From the human T2T-CHM13v2.0 reference genome, Homo sapiens: a stretch of DNA of 64,000 nucleotides. Location of the stretch: the NCBI RefSeq assembly GCF_009914755.1, contig NC_060935.1. One strand, written 5' to 3'. This document shows positions 6,895 through 55,790 of this stretch, one piece after another. Under the pieces are notes generated by a model, which did no database searches, was not told where the DNA came from, and saw only the letters and a list, made by a program, of their open reading frames with translations. Made by a program: the position numbers and the translations under genes. Position 1 is the first letter of the stretch. Each line of letters begins with the position of its first letter.

Positions 6895-8110
6895 TCTTTT
6901 TGAACCACTTTATTGAGGTATACTTGACATGTAAAAAGCTGTACATATTTAATGTATACATGTCAATGAGTTTAGAGATAAATATATACCTGTGAAACTA
7001 CCACTACAGTCAAGGCCATAAAAATATCCATCACCTTCTAAAGTTTTCTCCCACTTCCTTTATTACTATTAGATTTTTTGGTTAGACCCCATATAATATC
7101 TACCTTCTTGGCAATTTTAAATAAGCAATACATTGTTGTTATACACACTATGCTTTAGAGTAGGTCTCCAGAACTTATTCCTGTTGCATAACTGAAACTT
7201 GATATCCTTTAACCATCACCTCCCCATTTCTTCCTCTCCCCAGCCACTGGCAACAACCAATCTATTCTCTATTTCTATGAGTATGACTATTTTAGATTCT
7301 ATATATGAGAGAAATAATGCAATACTTGCCTTTTGTTTGTTGGCTTATTTTACTTAACATAATGCTCTCCAGGTTTATCTTAGGTGTCACAAATGGAAGC
7401 ATTTTCTTCTTTCTTGATGATGACTAATATTCTGTTGTATGTATATACCACACGTTCTTCATCCATTCATCCATGATAGATATTTAGATAGTTTCCATAT
7501 CTTGGCTATTGTAAATAATGTTGCAAAGAATTTGTGAGTGCAAGTACCTCTTCTACATTTTTTGAATACATACTGAGAAGTAGGGTTGCTGGATCATACA
7601 ATAGGTCTAATTTTAATATTTTCTGTTGTCCATAATGGCTGTGCCAGTTTTCATTCTCACCAACAGCATACACGTGTCCCCTTTCTTCACACCTTTGCCA
7701 GCACATGTTACCTTTTGTCTTATTTGTCTTTGTATCAATGATTTGTTTGAGTTCCTTATATATTTTGGATATTAATCCCTTATTAGAATTATGGTTTGCA
7801 AAGGTATTTTTCTATTCCATAGGATGTCTCTTCACTCTAATTATTGTTTCTGTTGCTGTGCATAAGCCTTTTAGTATGATATTATCCCATTGGTCTATTT
7901 TTAAAAATTCTTTTTGATGCTATTAATTGTCAGTGATATTCCTTTCTTAATTTCTTTTTCAGATAGTTTGTTAGTGTATAAAAATGGAACTGTTTTCTGA
8001 ATGTTGATTTTGTATTCCACAACTTTACTGAATTTATTTATTAGTTCTAACAGTTTTTGGTGGAATTTTAAAGATTTTCTCTACATATGGCCATGTCATT
8101 GGCAATAATT
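6895..8110 (-). mobile_element. L1MA9/L1MA10/L1MB-type fragment (internally deleted)
   Basis: TTTATTGAGGTATACTTGACATG terminus, 3'UTR motifs, and degenerate ORF2 peptide at 7506-7706 (CWQRCEERG...LYDPATLLLSMY). Confidence 0.8.
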
Positions 8111-37640: not shown

Positions 37641-39843
37641 GTACATAATCAATGTACAAAAATCACTAGCATTGTTACACACCAAAAAACAGCCAAACTG
37701 AAACCCAAATCAGAAAGGAAATCCCATTAACAATTGCCCCAAAAAGAATAAAATACCTAGGAATACAGATAACCAAAGAGGTGAAAGACCTCTACAATGA
37801 GAATTATAAAAACACTTCTCAAAGGAATAGGAGAAGAAACAATCAAATGGAAAAACATCCCACGTTAATGCATAAGAAGAATCAATATTATTTAAATGGC
37901 CAAAGCAACTTACAGATTCAATATTATTCCTATCAGACTACCAATGACATTCTTCAAAGAACCAGAAAAAAGTATTTTAACACTGATATGGAACCAAAAA
38001 TGAGCCTGAATAGCCAAGGCAATCAAAAAGAACATAGCTGGAAGCATCACGTTACCAGACTTCAAACTATACTACAGGGCTATCATACCAAAACAGCGTG
38101 GTACTGGTACAAAAGCAGGCACATAGACCAATGGAACAGAATAGAGAGGCCAGAAATAAGGCCACATATCTACAACCATCTGATCTTCAACAAAGCTGAC
38201 AAAAACAAGAAATGAGAAATAAACTCCCTATTCAATAAATGATGCTAGGATAACTGGCTAGCCATATGCAGAAGATTGAAGCTGGACCCCTTCCTTTCAC
38301 CATATAGAAAAATCAACTCAAGATGGATTAAAGATTTAAATATAAAACCCCAAATTATAAAAACCCTGGAAGGCAACCTAGGCAATACCATCCTGGACAT
38401 AGAAAAGGGCAAAGATTTCATGACAAAGACACCAAAACCAATAGCATCAAAAGCAAAAATTGACAAGTGGAATCTAATTAAACTTAAGAGCTTCTGCACA
38501 CCAAAATAAACTACTATAGAATAAACAGACAACTTACAGAATGGGAGAAAATATTTGTAAACTATACATCTGAAAAAGGTCTAATATCCAGCATCTATAA
38601 GGAATTTAAACAAATTTACAAGAAAAACATCCCCATTAAAAAGCAGGCAAAGGACAAGAACAGATGCTTCTCGAATGAGGACATACATTTGGCCTACAAG
38701 CATATGAAAAAAAGCTCATTATCACTGATCATTACAGAAATGCAATTCAAAACCACAATGAGATAGCATCTCACACCAGTCAGAATGGCTATTATTAAAA
38801 TGTCAAAAAAATAACAGATGCTGGTGAGGTTGCAGAGAAAAGAGAACATATATACACTGTTGGTGGGAGTGTCAATTAGTTCAACCATTGTGAAAAGCAG
38901 TATGATGGTTCCTCACAGAGCTAAAAGCAGGCCAAGTGGTTCATGCCTGTAATCCCAGCACTTTGGGAGGCCGAGTTAGGCAGATCACTTGAGGTCAGGA
39001 GTTCGAGAGCAGCCTGGCCAACATGGTGAAACCGCATCTCTACTGAAAATACAAAAACTAGCTGGGCATGGTGGTGTACACCTATAGTCTCAGCTATTCA
39101 GGAGGCGGAGGCAGGAGAATCTCTTGAACCTGGGAAGCAGAGGTTGCAGTGAGCCAAGTCCGTGCCACTGCACTCCAGCCTGTGTGAGAGCCAGACTGTC
39201 TAAAAAAAAAAAAAATGTAAAACTAGAACTACTATATTTGACCTAGAAATCCCATTATTGAGTATATACCCAGAGGCGTATAAATAATACTACCATAAAA
39301 ACACATGCACATGATTTTTTTTTTTTTTTTTTTTGCAGCACTATTCACAATAGCGAAGACATGGAATCAATCTAAATCCCCATCAATGACAGATTGGATA
39401 AAGAAAATGTGCTACATATACACAATGGAATTCTATGCAGCCATAAAAAAAGAATGAGATCGTGTCTTTTGTGGGAACCAGGATGGAGCTGGAGGTTATT
39501 ATCCTTAACAAGCTAATGCAGGAACAGAAAACCAAATACTGCATGTTCTCACTTGTAAGTCAGAGCTAAATGATAAGAACTTACAAACACAAAGAGGGAA
39601 ACAACAGACACTGGTGTCTACTTGAAGGGAGAAGGTGAGAAGAGAGATAGAAGCAGAAAAAATAACTACTGGGTAGTGGGCTTAATACCTGGGTGATGAA
39701 ATAATATGTAAAACAAACCCCCATTACAGGTGTTTACCTATGAAACAAACCTTCACATGTACCCCCAAACTTAAAGTAAAAGTTAACAAAAAGAATAGGA
39801 AAGGAAAGAAGATAAAAGAAAAGGAAGGGAAAATAAAAGAAAA
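37641..39843 (+). mobile_element. 5'-truncated L1 (L1PA12-14-like) interrupted by AluS
   Basis: ORF2 peptides 37781-38215 ([18 protein letters not shown]) and 38276-38509; 3'UTR GGGCTTAATACCTGGGTGATGAAATAATATG; purine-rich tail. Confidence 0.9.
38930..39215 (+). mobile_element. AluS (Sx/Sz-like)
   Basis: Dimeric Alu within L1 ORF2; imperfect TSD TAAAAGCAG/TAAAACTAG. Confidence 0.92.
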
Positions 39844-39844
39844 G

Positions 39845-40271
<427 letters not shown>

Positions 40272-40962
40272 TCAGGTTGTACATTTAAAGGGTTTTTCTT
40301 ATACTTATGTGGGTTGCATTGAACTCCCATACATTTTCGGTCCAATGAACTTCTGTTCTTGAGAGGCATCTATATGCAAATGAGGTGGCCAGGAAAAGGG
40401 GGCATAGATATTGTGTCAAACTTCACTGCTCCATTGTCTCGCTGGACTTCATTTTCAAAATTCAAGTTCGAAGATCAAATCATTAAGAATTTCAAGGTGG
40501 TAACAGCAGAACGCTAAACCAAGTGCAAAGGCCTTCTGATTTCAGGGCTCTGTGTGACCACACAGTTGTCCACTTATAAAGGTTCCCCTGTTAGCTCTTG
40601 ATTGTTGCTTTATTTATTTATTTATTTATTTCTTGTCTTTTGTTTTTCTTTTCCTTTTTTTTTATTATACTTTAAGTTCTAGGGTACATGTACACAACGT
40701 GCAGGTTTGTTACGTAAGTATATATGTGCCATGTTGGTGTGCTGCACCCATTAACTCGTCATTGACATTAGGTATATCTTCTAATGCTATGCCTCCCCAC
40801 TACCCCCACCCCACAACAGGCCCTGGTGTGTGATGTTCCCCTTCCTGTGTCCAAGTGTTCTCATTGTTCAATTCCCACCTATGAGTGAGAACATGCAGTG
40901 TTTGGTTTTTTGTCCTTGCGATACTTTGCTGAGAATGATGGTTTCCAGCTTCATCCATGTCC

Positions 40963-44580
<3,618 letters not shown>

Positions 44581-44627
44581 TATGATGTTAGCTGGTTATT
44601 TTGCTCATTAGTTGATGCAGTTTCTTC

Positions 44628-45635
44628 CTAGCCTTGATGGTCTTTACAATTTGGCATGTTCTTGCAGTGGTTGTTCCTTTCCAAGTTTAGTGCTTCCTTC
44701 AGGAGCTCTTTTAGGGCAAGCCTGGTGGTGAGAAAATCTCTCAGAATTTGCTTGTCTGTAAAGTATTTTATTTCTCCTTCACTTATGAAGCTTAGATTGG
44801 CTGGATATGAAATTCTGGGTTGAAAATTATTTTCTTTAAGAATGTTGAATATTGGCCCCCACTCTCTTCTAGCTTGTAGAGTTTCTGCTGAGAGATCAGC
44901 TGTTAGTCTGATGGGCTTCCCTTTGTGGGTAACCCGACCTTTCTCTCTGGCTGCCCTTAAGATTTTTTCCTTCATTTCAACTTTGGTGAATCTGACAATT
45001 ATGTATCTTGGAGTTGCTCTTCTTGAGTAGTATCTTTGTGGTATTCTCTGTGTTTCCTGAATCTGAATGTTGGCCTACCTTGCTCTGTTGGGTAGGTTCT
45101 CCTGGATAATATCCTGCAGTGTGTTTCCCAACTTGGTTCCGTTTTCCCCATCACTTTCAGGTACACCAATGAGACGTAGATTTGGTCTTTTCACATAGTC
45201 CCATATTTCTTTGAGGCTTTGTTCATTTCTTTCTATTCTTTTCTCTCTAAACTTCTCTTCTCACTTCATTTCATTCATTTGATCTTCCATCACTGATACC
45301 CTTTCTTCCAGTTGATTGAATCGGCTACTGAAGCTTGTGCATTCATCACGTAGTTCTCATGCCAAGGTTTTCAGCTCCATCAGGTCCTTTAAGGACTTCT
45401 CTGCATTAGTTATTCTAGTTAGCCATTCATCTAATCTTTTTTCAAGGTTTTTTACTTCTTTGCAATGGGTTTGAACTTCCTGCTTTAGCTTGGAGAAGTT
45501 TGATCGTCTGAAGCCTTCTTCTCTCATCTCAAAGTCATTCTCCGTCCAGCTTTGTTCCATTGCTGGTGAGGAGTTGTGTTCCTTTGGAGGAAGAGAGGTG
45601 CTCTGATTTTTAGAATTCTCAGTTTTTCTGTTCTG
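44628..45635 (-). pseudogene. L1 ORF1p from codon 5, disrupted
   Basis: QNRKTENSKNQS... N-terminus; C-terminal domain 44628-44975 (MKEKILRAAREKGRVTHKGKPIRLTADLS); internal stop codons. Confidence 0.93.
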
Positions 45636-46079
45636 TGAAAGATGGCAGAATAGGAACAGCTCCAGTCTACAGCTTCCAGCGTGAACGACGCAGAAGATGG
45701 GTGATTTCTGCATTTCCAACTGAGGTACCGGGTTCATCTCACTGGGGCTTGTCAGACAGTGGCTACAGGACAGTGGCTGCATCGCACCGAGCGTGAGCTG
45801 AAGCAGGGTGAGGCATCGCCTCACCTGGGAAGTGCAAGGGGTCAGGGAATTCCCTTTCGTAGCCAAGCAAAGCTGTGACAGATGGCACCTGGAAATTCGG
45901 GTCATTCTCACCCTAATACTGTGCTTTTCCAGTGGTCTTAGCAAACGGCACACCAGGAGATTATTTCCTGTGCCTGGCTCGGAGGGTCCCATGCCCACGG
46001 AGCCTCGCTCATTGCTAGCACAGCAGTCTGAGATGGAACTGCAAGGTGGCAGTGAGGCTGGGGGAGGGGTGCCCACCAT
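45357..46079 (-). CDS. Chimeric open reading frame: L1 ORF0 (extended) fused in frame to the ORF1p N-terminus, 240 aa; expression unproven
   Basis: ATG at 46079 in GCAATGG context; MVGTPPPASLPPCSSISDCCASN matches ORF0; 147 antisense-UTR codons, one junction Ser, then 92 ORF1 codons; TGA at 45359-45357. Confidence 0.4.
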   Translation of the reverse strand: MVGTPPPASLPPCSSISDCCASNERGSVGMGPSEPGTGNNLLVCRLLRPLEKHSIRVRMTRISRCHLSQLCLATKGNSLTPCTSQVRRCLTLLQLTLGAMQPLSCSHCLTSPSEMNPVPQLEMQKSPIFCVVHAGSCRLELFLFCHLSQNRKTENSKNQSTSLPPKEHNSSPAMEQSWTENDFEMREEGFRRSNFSKLKQEVQTHCKEVKNLEKRLDEWLTRITNAEKSLKDLMELKTLA

Positions 46080-46653
46080 TGCTGAGGCTTGATAGGTAAA
46101 CAAAGCGGCTGGGAAGCTCGAACTGCATAGAGCCCACCGCAGCGCAAGGAGGCCTGCCTGCCTCTGTAGACTCCATCTCTAGGGGCAGGGCATAGCAGAA
46201 CAAATGGCAGCAGAAACCTCTGCGGACTTAAATGTCCCTGTCTGACAGCTTTGAAGAGAGTAGTGGTTCTCCCAGCACAGAGTTTGAGATCTGAAAACGG
46301 ACAGACTGCCTCCTCAAGTGGGTCCCTGACCCCCGAGTAGCCTAACTGGGAGGCATCCCCCAGTAGGGGCAGATTGACACCTCACGAGGCTGGGTACCCC
46401 TCTGAGAGGAAACTTCCAGAGGAATGATCAGGCAGCAACATTTGCTGTTCAGCAATATTTGCTCTTCTGCAGCTTCCGCTGCTGATACCCAGGCAAATAG
46501 GGTCTGGAGTGGACCTCCAGCAAACTCCAACAGACCTGCAGCTGGGGGTCCTGACTGTTAGAAGGAAAACTAGAAAACAGAAAGGACATCCACACCAAAG
46601 ACCCATCTGTACATCACCATCATCAGAGACCAAAGTTACATAAAACCACAAAG
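45639..46653 (+). promoter_or_regulatory. L1 5'UTR bidirectional promoter, inverted relative to its ORFs
   Basis: Starts AAGATGGCAGAATAGGAACAGCTCCAG (YY1 core kept, first ~12 nt lost); locally GC/CpG-rich; ends at the ORF1 ATG (46654). Confidence 0.85.
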
Positions 46654-47334
46654 ATGGGGAAAAAAACAGGAAAAGCAGAACTGATTGTTGCTTTAGAAAT
46701 GAAGAATCTCTATTTGAGGACCTTATGTTGGGTATAATGTTCTCTCTCGTATACAGTTAGGCTTGGATATATCCTGAAGCTATAAGAAAAAATTTTCTAT
46801 TTATTTGATGAAAAGGAACTCTCTGGGTAACAAACATCAAGAATAAACTCCATTCAAATGAATTTTGCTCCAACAAATGTTAGAAGTTAAAAGTATCTGA
46901 ATCTAAAGATATACAGTACCAATGTATAGGGAAAGCATGCCTAGGGAAAGAATGGTTTGTCAAAGTAAGCACAAACCAGTATAGGGATGTCTTTGTGCAA
47001 CCTCTAACACTTTAGAAGAACAAGGGTTCATTATTAGTCACCATTATTAGTCATCAGAGTAGCACCATACTGGGGGAAGAACACCTGAAGTTCTTGAAGA
47101 ATTAGTATTGGCGTATGAAATTAATGTAGTTAGTGGACTTCATCCAATCCCTAGAGAAAACTTTGATAGTATTTCAGGTTCTGGATGGCATTAATGTTTT
47201 TAGTATACAATTGCAGCTTCTGAGTGTCAGCACAGGAGCTTCATTACTAATGGCAATAGGACAGAGCCTCATATGAAGAGGAAAAATGGAGTAAATATAA
47301 TTTGTCAGTAGGAATAATATTACAGTAATGATGA

Positions 47335-54244: not shown

Positions 54245-55790
54245 GAACAATTTTTTTTAGTGCCTACTATGTACTACATTATGCTAGGTGCTGGAGATAT
54301 AATGGTGAATAATGTTGCAATATGCCCAGTCTTCATGGAATCAACAGTCCAGTGGGGAAGGCAGATAAGTGGTAAGTCAATTGTAGTGCATGTTGATAAG
54401 AATAATTTATAAGGGGGCCCAGGGCATGGAGGCTCACGCCTGTAATCCCAGCGCTTCTGGGAGGCTGAGCTGGGTTATTACCTGAGGTTAGGAGTTCAAG
54501 ACAAGCCTGGCCAACATGGTGAAACCCTGTTTCTACAAAAATTAGCAAGGCATGGGGGTGCACACCTGTAGTCCCAGCTACTCAGGAGGCTGAGGCAGAA
54601 GACTCGCAGGTGGAGGTTGCAGTGAGCCAAGATCATGCCACTGCACTCCAGCCTGGGCAATAGAGTGAGACTTCATCTCAAAAACAAAACAAAACAAAAC
54701 AAAAGAATAATTATAAGGGAAGTACTGGTGCTATGGAAACACAGATGGAGTAAATAAAAATTGGAGATTTGGGGCTCAACATAGATGAAGAGACTTTCCA
54801 GTTAAAGTTGTATCTAAATTATTACCTGAAAAATGAGTTAAGAGCAATACACACAAAGAAGCAAAGAGGAAAAAATGTTTCCAGAGAGAAGGTAATATAT
54901 ACAGTTTCAGAGACAAAGAATGGTGTCAGAATGTGCTTTCAAGGTAAGGCAAGAGATTTAATATTACTAGAGTTCACAAGGGAAAGTCAGCGCTAAGGAG
55001 AAGGCCAAAAGCTAAGACCAGGCAAATCGTCAGGGGTCAGGTCATGATGAGGAAGCATAAGAGGAAAGATCTTAGATATTATCTGGAGGGTCCTGGAGAG
55101 TCGTTGAGGTATTTTAGGCAGGAGTGTGGCCTCAGTATATTTACAATTTAGAAGACTATTCCAATGAGTGGAGTGACTTAGTGGGGAGCTAGATGATAAA
55201 AATTAACACATAGTGATCCAAATGAAAGATAATGATGACCAGAGCTACAGTTGTAGGAAGAGAAATGATAGAATTAGATGCATTTCAGAAATATTAAAGA
55301 GTTATAATTGTCTGAATTGATGGATTGGATAAGGTTAGAGAAGTACACATGGATGCCTCAGTTATGACTTGGCAATTCAATGATCAGTGGTTCCATTTAC
55401 AGAGAGAAATTGTGAGAAAAGAAGCAGGTTTCGAGTGGGAGAGATGAGTTTAAATTTAGATATTTCAGACAGAGGTGCTCATAATATATTCAAGTGTAAA
55501 AGGATAGTAAGCATTTGAAAATACAGATCTGAATTTCCTGTGAAAATTATTGACTGGACCTCAAAATTTAAGAGCTATTAGTATGAGTAGTAATTAACCT
55601 CCTAGACAGGATAAAGTTATGTGAGAATGTATGAAGTGATAAAATTTTAAAAAAAAGATACAGTTAAGTCTAACAATTTTAGAATGGGCAGAGGAAGGAG
55701 CCTGCTAGACTGAGAACAGGTCATATGAGGGGTAGGAGAAGATATAGAAGAGTATGGTGTCAAAAAAAAATTTACAGAAGAGAGAGTTTT
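54245..55790 (-). mobile_element. L2 LINE (~1.2 kb) interrupted by Alu
   Basis: AGTGCCTACTATGTAC...CTAGGTGCTGGAGAT terminus followed by a long purine-rich L2 body. Confidence 0.78.
54416..54702 (+). mobile_element. AluS (Sx/Sq-like) with small deletions and (AAAAC)n tail
   Basis: TSD AAGAATAAT(T)TATAAGGG at 54398-54415 and 54703-54719. Confidence 0.92.

What the first reader, a model, noticed from the sequence alone, without database searches (positions are those of the whole stretch)
45357..46079. ORF0-ORF1p fusion reading frame created by the L1 5'UTR inversion
Seen: on the minus strand an ATG at 46079 (GCAATGG, strong Kozak context) opens MVGTPPPASLPPCSSISDCCASNERGSVG..., stays open for 147 codons to the L1 5' end (...ELFLFCHL), crosses the inversion junction via one codon (TCA, 45638-45636), and continues in frame into ORF1p from Gln5 (QNRKTENSKNQS...LMELKTLA), 240 aa in total. 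The first two downstream stops are TGA at ORF1 consensus Arg positions, as expected from CGA>TGA CpG decay. Established: ORF0 is the primate L1 antisense ORF driven by the antisense promoter, and it normally points away from ORF1 and fuses to host exons. Inference: at insertion this locus was a re-wired L1 in which the antisense promoter could drive an ORF0-full ORF1p chimera followed by ORF2. Today it could encode ORF0 plus part of the ORF1p coiled coil, a candidate interactor with ORF1p trimers. Caveats: the long open antisense frame is probably inherited from the subfamily, and an in-frame junction arises about one time in three by chance.
Basis: partly seen in the sequence, partly recalled or inferred. 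Interest (0 to 1): 0.8.

Follow-up and report, generated by a model that had tools for sequence, protein, structure and literature searches.

The report
Old L1 with back-to-front promoter end
The 240-codon open frame is really there, but it is a by-product of an old LINE-1 copy whose front end went in backwards, and nothing found here shows that it is used.

Summary
On the minus strand an ATG at 46079 opens a 240-codon frame (to 45357). It runs antisense through an inverted L1 5'UTR, crosses a 2-3 nt junction, and continues in frame into ORF1 from Gln5.

The locus is one ~6.07 kb full-length L1 (40612-46681, minus strand). It inserted by twin priming. It has a 13-bp target-site duplication, and both arms are equally diverged from relatives. 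The two arms share about 17 nt at the A-rich start of ORF1.

The long antisense frame is inherited. It is still open in 10 of 29 nearest relatives, and most breaks in the other 19 fall at three CGA codons that recur as TGA. pN/pS is 0.81 and CpG retention is ordinary. ORF1 has three stops and ORF2 is in pieces. No other copy in the genome carries this junction.

The scans found only two other loci where an antisense L1 5' end meets the start of ORF1. One is in frame and one is not.

The ORF1p part stops at the residue-98 equivalent, a weakly expressed truncation class in print (PMC5605252).

Verdict: a neutral relic of a known mechanism. Expression could not be tested.

The parts
46682..46694 (-). 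5' target-site duplication, aaagcaacaatca (13 nt)
   Evidence: Read. The identical 13-mer follows the A-rich tail.
45639..46681 (+). Inverted arm: L1 5'UTR, lacking about the first 12-13 nt, plus the first ~28 nt of ORF1. It is sense on the + strand, so the minus strand reads it antisense.
   Evidence: 90-92% identical to 29 full-length relatives over 472 nt and 86.7-92.7% over the rest of the 5'UTR.
46654..46656 (+). ORF1 start codon left on the inverted arm. It now opens only a 27-codon frame into the flank.
46082..46582 (.). RefSeq 'enhancer' feature. It lies wholly inside the inverted 5'UTR, just upstream (in the minus-strand sense) of the ORF0-type ATG.
   Evidence: Hub annotation supplied with the finding; not checked by any search.
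45357..46079 (-). The 240-codon ORF: 147 codons of the ORF0 frame, 1 junction codon, ORF1 residues 5 to about 97, and a TGA stop.
   Evidence: ORF list; sequence; ORF residues 194-239 align to the ORF1p coiled-coil chain 6fia_A, positions 3-48 of 104.
45637..45638 (-). Junction filler (tc) between the end of the inverted arm (…ccatctt) and the start of the direct arm (acag aac…).
   Evidence: relatives read CCATCTTGG… and …AAAAAACAGAAC…
40612..45636 (-). Direct arm: L1 from ORF1 codon 5 through ORF2 and the 3'UTR to an A-rich/(aaat)n tail at about 40662-40612.
   Evidence: The ORF1 part is 87.4-94.5% identical (mean 91.1%) to the ORF1 of the same relatives.
45075..45359 (-). Three premature stops in ORF1: TGA 45359-45357, TGA 45263-45261, and a stop at 45077-45075. 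There is also a 3-nt deletion upstream, and the C-terminal end reads differently from the chr13 copy.
   Evidence: translation; alignment; for the chr13 ORF1 C-terminus.
40963..44595 (-). ORF2 remnants, broken into stop-free stretches of 341, 79, 166, 72, 300 and 300 codons.
40599..40611 (-). 3' target-site duplication, aaagcaacaatca.

Best explanation
This is one old primate L1 (L1PA type with an ORF0-bearing 5'UTR), about 6.07 kb, on the minus strand at 40612-46681. It was inserted in a single twin-priming event. The usual cDNA was primed from the poly(A) tail. A second cDNA was primed inside the A-rich first codons of ORF1 and copied the whole 5'UTR. The two were joined head to head. The 5'UTR therefore sits backwards in front of ORF1, and its antisense strand reads into the L1 body. 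In this subfamily the ORF0 frame had no stop between its ATG and the 5' end of the element. The join happened to fall in frame (one chance in three). At birth the locus therefore carried an ORF0-frame to ORF1 fusion, followed by ORF2. Since then it has decayed like its relatives. The 240-codon ORF is what is left before the first CGA-to-TGA stop in ORF1. Shown here: the anatomy, the inheritance of the open frame, the decay, and the absence of offspring. Inferred: that the antisense promoter ever transcribed it. Not shown: any present transcript or protein.
For: (1) One 13-nt duplication, aaagcaacaatca, flanks the whole composite in direct orientation.
(2) The inverted arm ends at about ORF1 nt 28 and the direct arm starts at ORF1 codon 5. 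The arms therefore share about 17 nt. Published twin-priming overlaps have a median of 12 bp (quartiles 4-17) and TSDs a median of 13 bp (PMC12016303, passages read).
(3) Both arms are equally far from the same 29 relatives: 90-92% for the 5'UTR and a mean of 91.1% for ORF1.
(4) The inverted arm has no poly(A) or TSD of its own.
(5) The ORF0 frame is open to the junction-equivalent position in 10 of 29 relatives, 8 of them with ATG. Fifteen of the other 19 stop at codons 25, 61 or 88 (8, 5 and 2 copies). At those codons the commonest state is CGA (13, 11 and 22 of 30 rows) and TGA recurs (9, 7 and 3 rows).
(6) Neutral pattern: 6 synonymous and 14 non-synonymous differences from the majority state, pN/pS 0.81. 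Divergence is 4.4%, against 4.2-7.4% in relatives. It retains 14 of 30 ancestral CpGs, against a median of 12 and a range of 7-18.
(7) ORF1 has 3 stops and ORF2 is fragmented.
(8) A second, independent case on chr13 has its own TSD and breakpoints at ORF1 codons 7-8. This shows that the same mechanism recurs at this A-rich site.
Against: The window keeps more open frame than a typical relative. Only 4 of 26 relatives keep ORF1 open as far as the window does and 10 of 29 keep the ORF0 frame. If these are independent, about 1 copy in 20 would keep both. The pN/pS test rests on 20 differences and cannot exclude weak constraint. RefSeq marks an enhancer inside the inverted 5'UTR (hub annotation), so some regulatory activity at the locus is possible. 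Of the three antisense-5'-end/ORF1-start junctions found, two are in frame and both still carry long fusion ORFs of 240 and 198 aa. This is more than one third, but n is 3 and the window was chosen for being in frame. The nick site reads CTTT/A, which is close to but not on the strict endonuclease motif list of PMC12016303.
Confidence: 0.85

Rival explanations
1. The locus is still transcribed from the L1 antisense promoter and translated into an ORF0-ORF1p(5-97) chimera. This protein co-assembles with ORF1p and modulates L1.
For: The ORF is intact with a good start context. The antisense promoter of L1PA2-8 is active within the first 600 bp (PMC4908685). Truncated ORF1p can suppress L1 in trans, including a construct truncated at 98 when over-expressed (PMC5605252). 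A RefSeq enhancer overlaps the region upstream of the ATG (hub annotation).
Against: pN/pS is 0.81 and CpG retention is ordinary. No Pfam domain reaches its cut-off. Only chain positions 3-48 of the 104-residue coiled-coil structure are covered. In PMC5605252 the 98 construct gave the lowest protein level and lost its effect when expressed from wild-type sequence. That paper also found the native N-terminus and the coiled coil to be required, and here residues 1-4 are replaced by 148 foreign residues. An out-of-frame upstream ATG at 46176 opens a 53-codon ORF that overlaps the start.
Confidence: 0.04
2. Two separate L1 insertions that lie head to head by chance, as at the chr5 locus, rather than one twin-priming event.
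For: Such a layout exists. At chr5 (L055/L066) a younger full-length L1 abuts an older L1 truncated at ORF1 codon 7, in the opposite orientation.
Against: In the window the inverted arm stops about 28 nt into ORF1 with no body or poly(A) of its own. One TSD pair encloses both arms. The arms overlap by about 17 nt in L1 coordinates and have the same divergence from the same relatives.
Confidence: 0.03
3. A normal full-length insertion whose 5'UTR was inverted later by a local rearrangement.
For: None specific. Inversions between nearby repeats do occur.
Against: The 5' TSD copy is in direct orientation next to the inverted arm. About 17 nt of L1 are present on both arms, which an inversion of existing DNA would not create.
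Confidence: 0.02
4. The re-wired element was a working source L1, driven by its antisense promoter, that spread copies carrying the junction.
For: At insertion the frame ran from ORF0 into ORF1 and then ORF2 (inference).
Against: No other locus carries this junction. The junction-spanning DNA searches returned only the locus itself and the chr13 event, which has a different junction (40 scored of 2820 and of 1652 candidates). Three exact-anchor scans of the whole genome returned only the window, chr13 and chr5.
Confidence: 0.01

Closest known systems
5'-inverted L1 insertions made by twin priming (Ostertag and Kazazian 2001, as cited and characterised in PMC12016303)
   Same: One TSD pair, a poly(A) tail on the direct arm, an inverted 5' arm, and a short overlap between the arms (about 17 nt here; published median 12 bp). 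The TSD is 13 nt, equal to the published median.
   Different: Per PMC12016303, breakpoints of recent insertions are spread over the 3' end of L1. Here the inverted arm is the complete 5'UTR and the break lies in the first codons of ORF1. The element is therefore full length with only its promoter region flipped. Only one other such case (chr13) turned up in the scans.
L1 ORF0 (Denli et al. 2015; known to me only through PMC4908685, PMC7746726, PMC9252281 and PMC10619931, because the paper itself was not held)
   Same: Antisense strand of the 5'UTR. The ATG is about 441 nt from the truncated 5' end, and PMC10619931 places the start codon at nt 451. It has a good start context and clear nucleotide homology to a young copy that carries a 71-codon ORF (L045).
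   Different: It is not 71 aa. In this subfamily the frame has no stop before the 5' end of the element (147 codons here). Here it does not run out into host DNA or splice to host exons. It runs into the element's own ORF1.
ORF0-host exon fusion transcripts (57 of about 3200 loci, as summarised in PMC4908685)
   Same: An ORF0 N-terminus joined to a downstream coding sequence.
   Different: Those fusions arise by splicing from ORF0 donors to host exons. Here the join is in the DNA, made at insertion, and the partner is L1 ORF1.
Truncated ORF1 proteins from L1 loci with premature stops (PMC5605252)
   Same: The stop lies at the Arg-98 equivalent, matching that paper's '98' construct (N-terminus plus 6 of 14 heptads).
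   Different: The native N-terminal four residues are replaced by a 148-residue ORF0-frame extension. The ORF1 belongs to an older type whose coiled coil differs from the modern one at many positions. No expression is known.

Membership tests
Twin-primed (5'-inverted) L1 insertion | A single target-site duplication encloses both arms, in direct orientation | tested here: met
   13 of 13 nt identical at 46694-46682 and 40611-40599.
Twin-primed (5'-inverted) L1 insertion | A direct 3' arm ending in poly(A), and a 5' arm in the opposite orientation without its own tail | tested here: met
Twin-primed (5'-inverted) L1 insertion | The arms are contiguous in L1 coordinates, with a small overlap or gap at the internal priming site | tested here: met
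   The inverted arm reaches about ORF1 nt 28 and the direct arm starts at codon 5, an overlap of about 17 nt. The inverted copy carries small indels, so the exact length is approximate.
Twin-primed (5'-inverted) L1 insertion | Both arms come from one RNA, so they have the same subfamily and age | tested here: met
   Identity to the same relatives is 90-92% (5'UTR, 29 of 29 hits) and 87.4-94.5% (ORF1, 27 of 29 hits, one of them partial). No named subfamily call was possible.
Twin-primed (5'-inverted) L1 insertion | An L1 endonuclease-type nick site at the poly(A) side | tested here: inconclusive
   The nicked strand reads CTTT/AGAA. This is close to TTTT/A but not on the strict list in PMC12016303.
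L1 ORF0 | On the antisense strand of an L1HS-L1PA8 type 5'UTR, downstream of the antisense promoter (first 600 bp) | tested here: met
   The ATG is 441 nt from the arm's end. The location criteria come from PMC4908685 and PMC10619931.
L1 ORF0 | Homology to the 71-aa ORF0 of young L1 | tested here: met
   Young copy L045 has a 71-codon ORF at the homologous ATG, with 83.9% nucleotide identity over the 472-nt query. No reference ORF0 sequence from print was available.
L1 ORF0 | A short peptide of 71 aa ending inside the 5'UTR | tested here: not met
   147 codons with no stop before the 5' end. The same holds in 10 of 29 relatives, and 15 of the other 19 stop at recurrent CGA-to-TGA positions.
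L1 ORF0 | Transcribed and translated | not testable with these tools
   No expression data were available.
L1 ORF1p | N-terminal region, full coiled coil, RRM and C-terminal domain in one frame | tested here: not met
   The ORF stops at the residue-98 equivalent and covers chain positions 3-48 of the 104-residue coiled-coil structure 6fia. No Pfam family reaches its cut-off. The rest of ORF1 follows in the same frame but behind three stops.
Dominant-negative truncated ORF1p (PMC5605252) | Native N-terminus plus enough coiled coil to heteromerise (best at about 99-132) | tested here: not met
   Residues 1-4 are replaced by a 148-residue extension. The truncation at about 98 falls in the weakly expressed class of that paper. 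Binding itself was not tested.

The most novel reading that the evidence does not exclude
The flipped 5'UTR still fires its antisense promoter in germ cells, early embryo or tumours. The transcript is translated into an ORF0-ORF1p(5-97) chimera that enters ORF1p assemblies and damps L1 activity. That would make it a host-retained, DNA-encoded fusion of the two L1 'accessory' reading frames.
Probability: 0.03. Interest if true: 0.55.

Novelty: new member of a known kind. Interest (0 to 1): 0.18.

Why it matters
As it stands, this is a tidy example of twin priming. It shows that the mechanism can flip just the promoter region of a full-length L1, so that the antisense promoter and the ORF0 frame point into ORF1 and ORF2.

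It would matter only if such re-wired copies are expressed. They would then be a DNA-encoded source of ORF0-ORF1p chimeras, and possibly of trans-acting truncated ORF1p.

Two side results may be of more use. First, the A-rich first codons of ORF1 look like a recurrent internal priming site: two independent events have breakpoints within about 10 nt of each other. Second, in older ORF0-bearing subfamilies the ORF0 frame is open all the way out of the element. It is not a closed 71-codon ORF.

Tried and rejected
- **Bacterial-type promoter and terminator scan.** It found nothing and is not relevant to a human Pol II element.
- **Denli et al. 2015.** The paper is not held. ORF0 facts come second-hand from passages in PMC4908685, PMC7746726, PMC9252281 and PMC10619931. 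I could not check whether that paper already describes the longer or open-ended ORF0 of older subfamilies.
- **Pfam on the 240-aa ORF.** Only two sub-threshold coiled-coil-like matches (14.3 and 13.8 bits, cut-offs 23.9 and 26.3). They were rejected.
- **Anchor scans for junctions deeper in ORF1.** One search gave 6 hits. All share one unrelated repeated sequence without L1 5'-end features, so I set them aside. One search gave 0 hits. One search also returned two chr19 loci (L060, L061) where the L1 5' end meets non-L1 flank; these are not junctions with ORF1. One search returned four non-L1 chance matches (L051-L054).
- **Literature searches for a described ORF0-ORF1 fusion or a flipped-5'UTR L1.** The listings, and the passages I opened, show none. 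These searches cover only the held open-access library.
- **Hypotheses considered and rejected.** Two independent insertions, a later inversion, and an amplifying re-wired lineage; see the rival explanations.

Full report
**1. The observation**

The start context is gcaATGg. Codons 1-147 read the antisense strand of an L1 5'UTR, and codon 147 (ctt, 45641-45639) is the last that matches L1 5'-end sequence. Codon 148 is tca (45638-45636). From 45635 the frame reads cag aac aga aaa act, which is ORF1 from Gln5, and it stops at TGA 45359-45357. The second stop is TGA at 45263-45261. In the three-way alignment both TGAs sit opposite CGA in the chr13 copy, and opposite CGA and CAA in the chr5 copy. 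The coordinates, length, junction codon and CpG-decay stops are all confirmed.

**2. Anatomy of the locus**

- Read on the minus strand, aaagcaacaatca (46694-46682) is followed directly by antisense L1 sequence. This sequence begins about 28 nt inside ORF1, so the ORF1 ATG lies on the + strand at 46654-46656. It then runs back through the whole 5'UTR to 45639.
- After a 2-3 nt filler, the L1 continues in sense from ORF1 codon 5 through ORF2 and the 3'UTR. It ends in an A-rich/(aaat)n tail at 40612, followed by the same 13-mer at 40611-40599.
- The composite is 6,070 nt long.
- The two arms share about 17 nt of L1 (cagaacagaaaaactga on the direct arm, and a slightly rearranged copy on the inverted arm).
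- Both arms are equally diverged from the same 29 full-length relatives. The 5'UTR is 90-92% identical over 472 nt and 86.7-92.7% over the rest. ORF1 is 87.4-94.5% identical, mean 91.1%, in 27 of 29 relatives with a hit, one of those partial.

This is the textbook product of twin priming. A 2025 long-read survey reports 5' inversions in 18-22% of L1 insertions. It gives a median arm overlap of 12 bp (quartiles 4-17) and a median TSD of 13 bp (PMC12016303, passages read). Two separate insertions, or a later inversion, do not fit the single direct TSD pair, the missing tail on the inverted arm, or the shared 17 nt.

**3. Is the open antisense frame special to this locus?**

It is not. I took the 29 nearest 5'UTR relatives in the same genome (40 scored of 6354 candidates, 29 fetched besides the locus itself). 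I read each from the homologous ATG.

- Ten of 29 are open to the position equivalent to the window's junction. Eight of these have ATG; L013 has ATT and L027 has ACG.
- Among the other 19, eight stop at codon 25, five at codon 61, two at codon 88 and two at codon 114. One stops at codon 15 and one after a frameshift.
- At codons 25, 61 and 88 the commonest state is CGA (13, 11 and 22 of 30 rows) and TGA recurs (9, 7 and 3 rows).

The founder of this subfamily therefore had an ORF0 frame with no stop before the 5' end of the element. The window shows 0 stops in that frame against 7 and 7 in the other two antisense frames.

Younger copies differ. Among 18 further loci examined, one (L045) has the 71-codon ORF that the literature calls ORF0 (71 aa per PMC4908685). 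Three have 102 codons, as does the chr13 copy. One (L061) is open-ended.

**4. Is there any sign of constraint?**

- Against the majority state of the 29 relatives, the ORF0 part of the window has 6 synonymous and 14 non-synonymous differences (113.7 and 327.3 sites). This gives pN/pS 0.81. The value is neutral within the small power of 20 changes.
- The window is 4.4% from the majority state. Relatives range from 4.2 to 7.4%, median 5.7%.
- It keeps 14 of 30 inferred ancestral CpGs. Relatives keep 7-18, median 12.
- ORF1 carries three stops, a 3-nt deletion and an altered C-terminal end. ORF2 is split into at least six stop-free pieces.
- Only 4 of 26 relatives keep ORF1 open as far as the window does. 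Had ORF1 stopped earlier, the ORF would merely be shorter.

**5. Did the re-wired element spread, and are there others?**

- A 161-nt query across the junction found the locus itself and one other junction-spanning hit, on chr13 (40 scored of 2820 candidates).
- The chr13 junction used as a query found the same two loci (40 scored of 1652 candidates).
- Three whole-genome scans used exact anchors on either side of such a junction. They returned the window, chr13 and one locus on chr5, plus chance or non-ORF1 matches.
- Scans for junctions deeper in ORF1 gave only an unrelated repeat (6 hits) or nothing.
- No second copy has the window's junction, so there are no detectable offspring.

The chr13 locus is a second true twin-priming event in a younger L1. 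Its inverted arm ends at ORF1 codon 8, its direct arm starts in codon 7, and it has its own TSD (AAAAGTCAAAAA). Its junction is out of frame and its ORF0 is 102 codons.

The chr5 locus is different. A younger full-length L1 lies head to head with an older L1 truncated at ORF1 codon 7. That junction is in frame and carries a 198-codon fusion ORF.

In total, 2 of 3 junctions are in frame. Leaving out the window, which was chosen for being in frame, the count is 1 of 2. This is compatible with one third. The scans need exact matches of 19-21 bases and will miss diverged copies, so this is not a census.

**6. What could the product do?**

The ORF1p-derived part aligns to the solved coiled coil of human ORF1p: 6fia_A, chain positions 3-48 of 104, E = 1.8e-10. 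It ends at the Arg-98 equivalent. That numbering is my own count from recalled L1HS ORF1p and is consistent with the '98' construct of PMC5605252. No Pfam family reaches its cut-off.

PMC5605252 (abstract and passages read) shows that truncated ORF1p can suppress L1 in trans. The effect needs the N-terminus and the coiled coil and is strongest for truncations around 130. The 98 construct (6 of 14 heptads) had the lowest steady-state level and lost its effect when expressed from wild-type rather than codon-optimised sequence.

Here the first four residues are replaced by 148 residues of ORF0 frame, and the coiled coil is of an older type that differs at many positions. An out-of-frame ATG at 46176 opens a 53-codon ORF that overlaps the start. 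It would compete if transcripts begin upstream of it. An interaction with modern ORF1p is possible but unsupported.

**7. What is inferred rather than shown**

Antisense transcription into the L1 body is inferred. The basis is the reported antisense-promoter activity of L1PA2-8 within the first 600 bp of the 5'UTR (PMC4908685) and the intact look of that region here. The RefSeq enhancer at 46082-46582 comes from the hub's annotation and was not examined. The subfamily name (I would guess L1PA5-7 from the ORF1 coiled-coil type) and an age of roughly 20-30 million years rest on recall of published subfamily ages and neutral rates, not on any call.

**8. Comparison with what is known, and novelty**

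The mechanism (twin priming), ORF0, ORF0 fusions by splicing, and truncated ORF1p are all in print. I found no description of a flipped-5'UTR L1 or of an ORF0-ORF1 fusion. I examined the listings and the passages opened in PMC4908685, PMC7746726, PMC5605252, PMC9252281, PMC12016303 and PMC10619931. The primary ORF0 paper was not held, and subscription journals are largely missing from the library. I file this as a new member of a known kind.

**9. Verdict**

The structural interpretation is correct. The functional suggestion is unsupported, and by the tests available the locus looks neutral. Interest is low (0.18). The most novel reading not excluded is an expressed chimera that acts on ORF1p, which I put at about 3%.

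Noticed in passing
L002 (G000:C13:104601910-104605067), junction near locus position 1590; 3' end in L065: A second, independent twin-primed L1 whose whole 5'UTR is flipped. The inverted arm ends at ORF1 codon 8 and the direct arm starts in codon 7. It has its own TSD, AAAAGTCAAAAA, and a younger ORF1 type. Its breakpoints lie within about 10 nt of the window's, so the A-rich first codons of ORF1 may be a preferred internal priming site. The junction is out of frame and ORF0 is 102 codons.
   Followed up: yes
L055 / L066 (G000:C5:176819000-176827712), junction at L066 about 7151-7163: A younger full-length L1 lies head to head with an older L1 that starts at ORF1 codon 7. The ORF0 frame of the young copy runs in frame into the old ORF1 and gives a 198-codon ORF. 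The far flank of the young L1 is antisense ORF2-like L1 sequence, and no TSD was evident. How this layout arose is unexplained.
   Followed up: partly
window 45639-46079 minus strand; loci L010-L038, L041-L050, L061: In the window's subfamily the ORF0 frame has no stop between its ATG and the 5' end of L1 (0 stops in 147 codons, against 7 and 7 in the other frames). Each full-length copy would then read out into its flank. Younger copies show 102-codon and 71-codon forms. I could not check whether this is described in the primary ORF0 paper.
   Followed up: partly
window 46654-46737 plus strand: Because of the flip, the L1 sense promoter and the ORF1 ATG now point out of the element on the + strand. 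This is the strand of LINC02742, whose next exon is at 54288 per the hub table. The ATG opens only a 27-codon frame into the flank.
   Followed up: partly
window 46015-46176 minus strand: An upstream ATG at 46176 (context agagATGg) opens a 53-codon ORF in another frame that overlaps the ORF0-type start at 46079. It would compete for ribosomes on any antisense transcript that begins upstream of it.
   Followed up: no
L060 and L061 (G000:C19:45567330-45570439 and 45681102-45684211): Two chr19 loci about 114 kb apart share the same L1 5' end and nearly the same flank, so they look like a segmental duplication. They were picked up by an anchor scan. One has a 152-codon open-ended ORF0 frame.
   Followed up: no
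window 39300-40150 minus strand: Just beyond the 3' TSD lie an Alu-like element with a long T run (about 39960-40150) and an older L1-like fragment (about 39300-39800).
   Followed up: no
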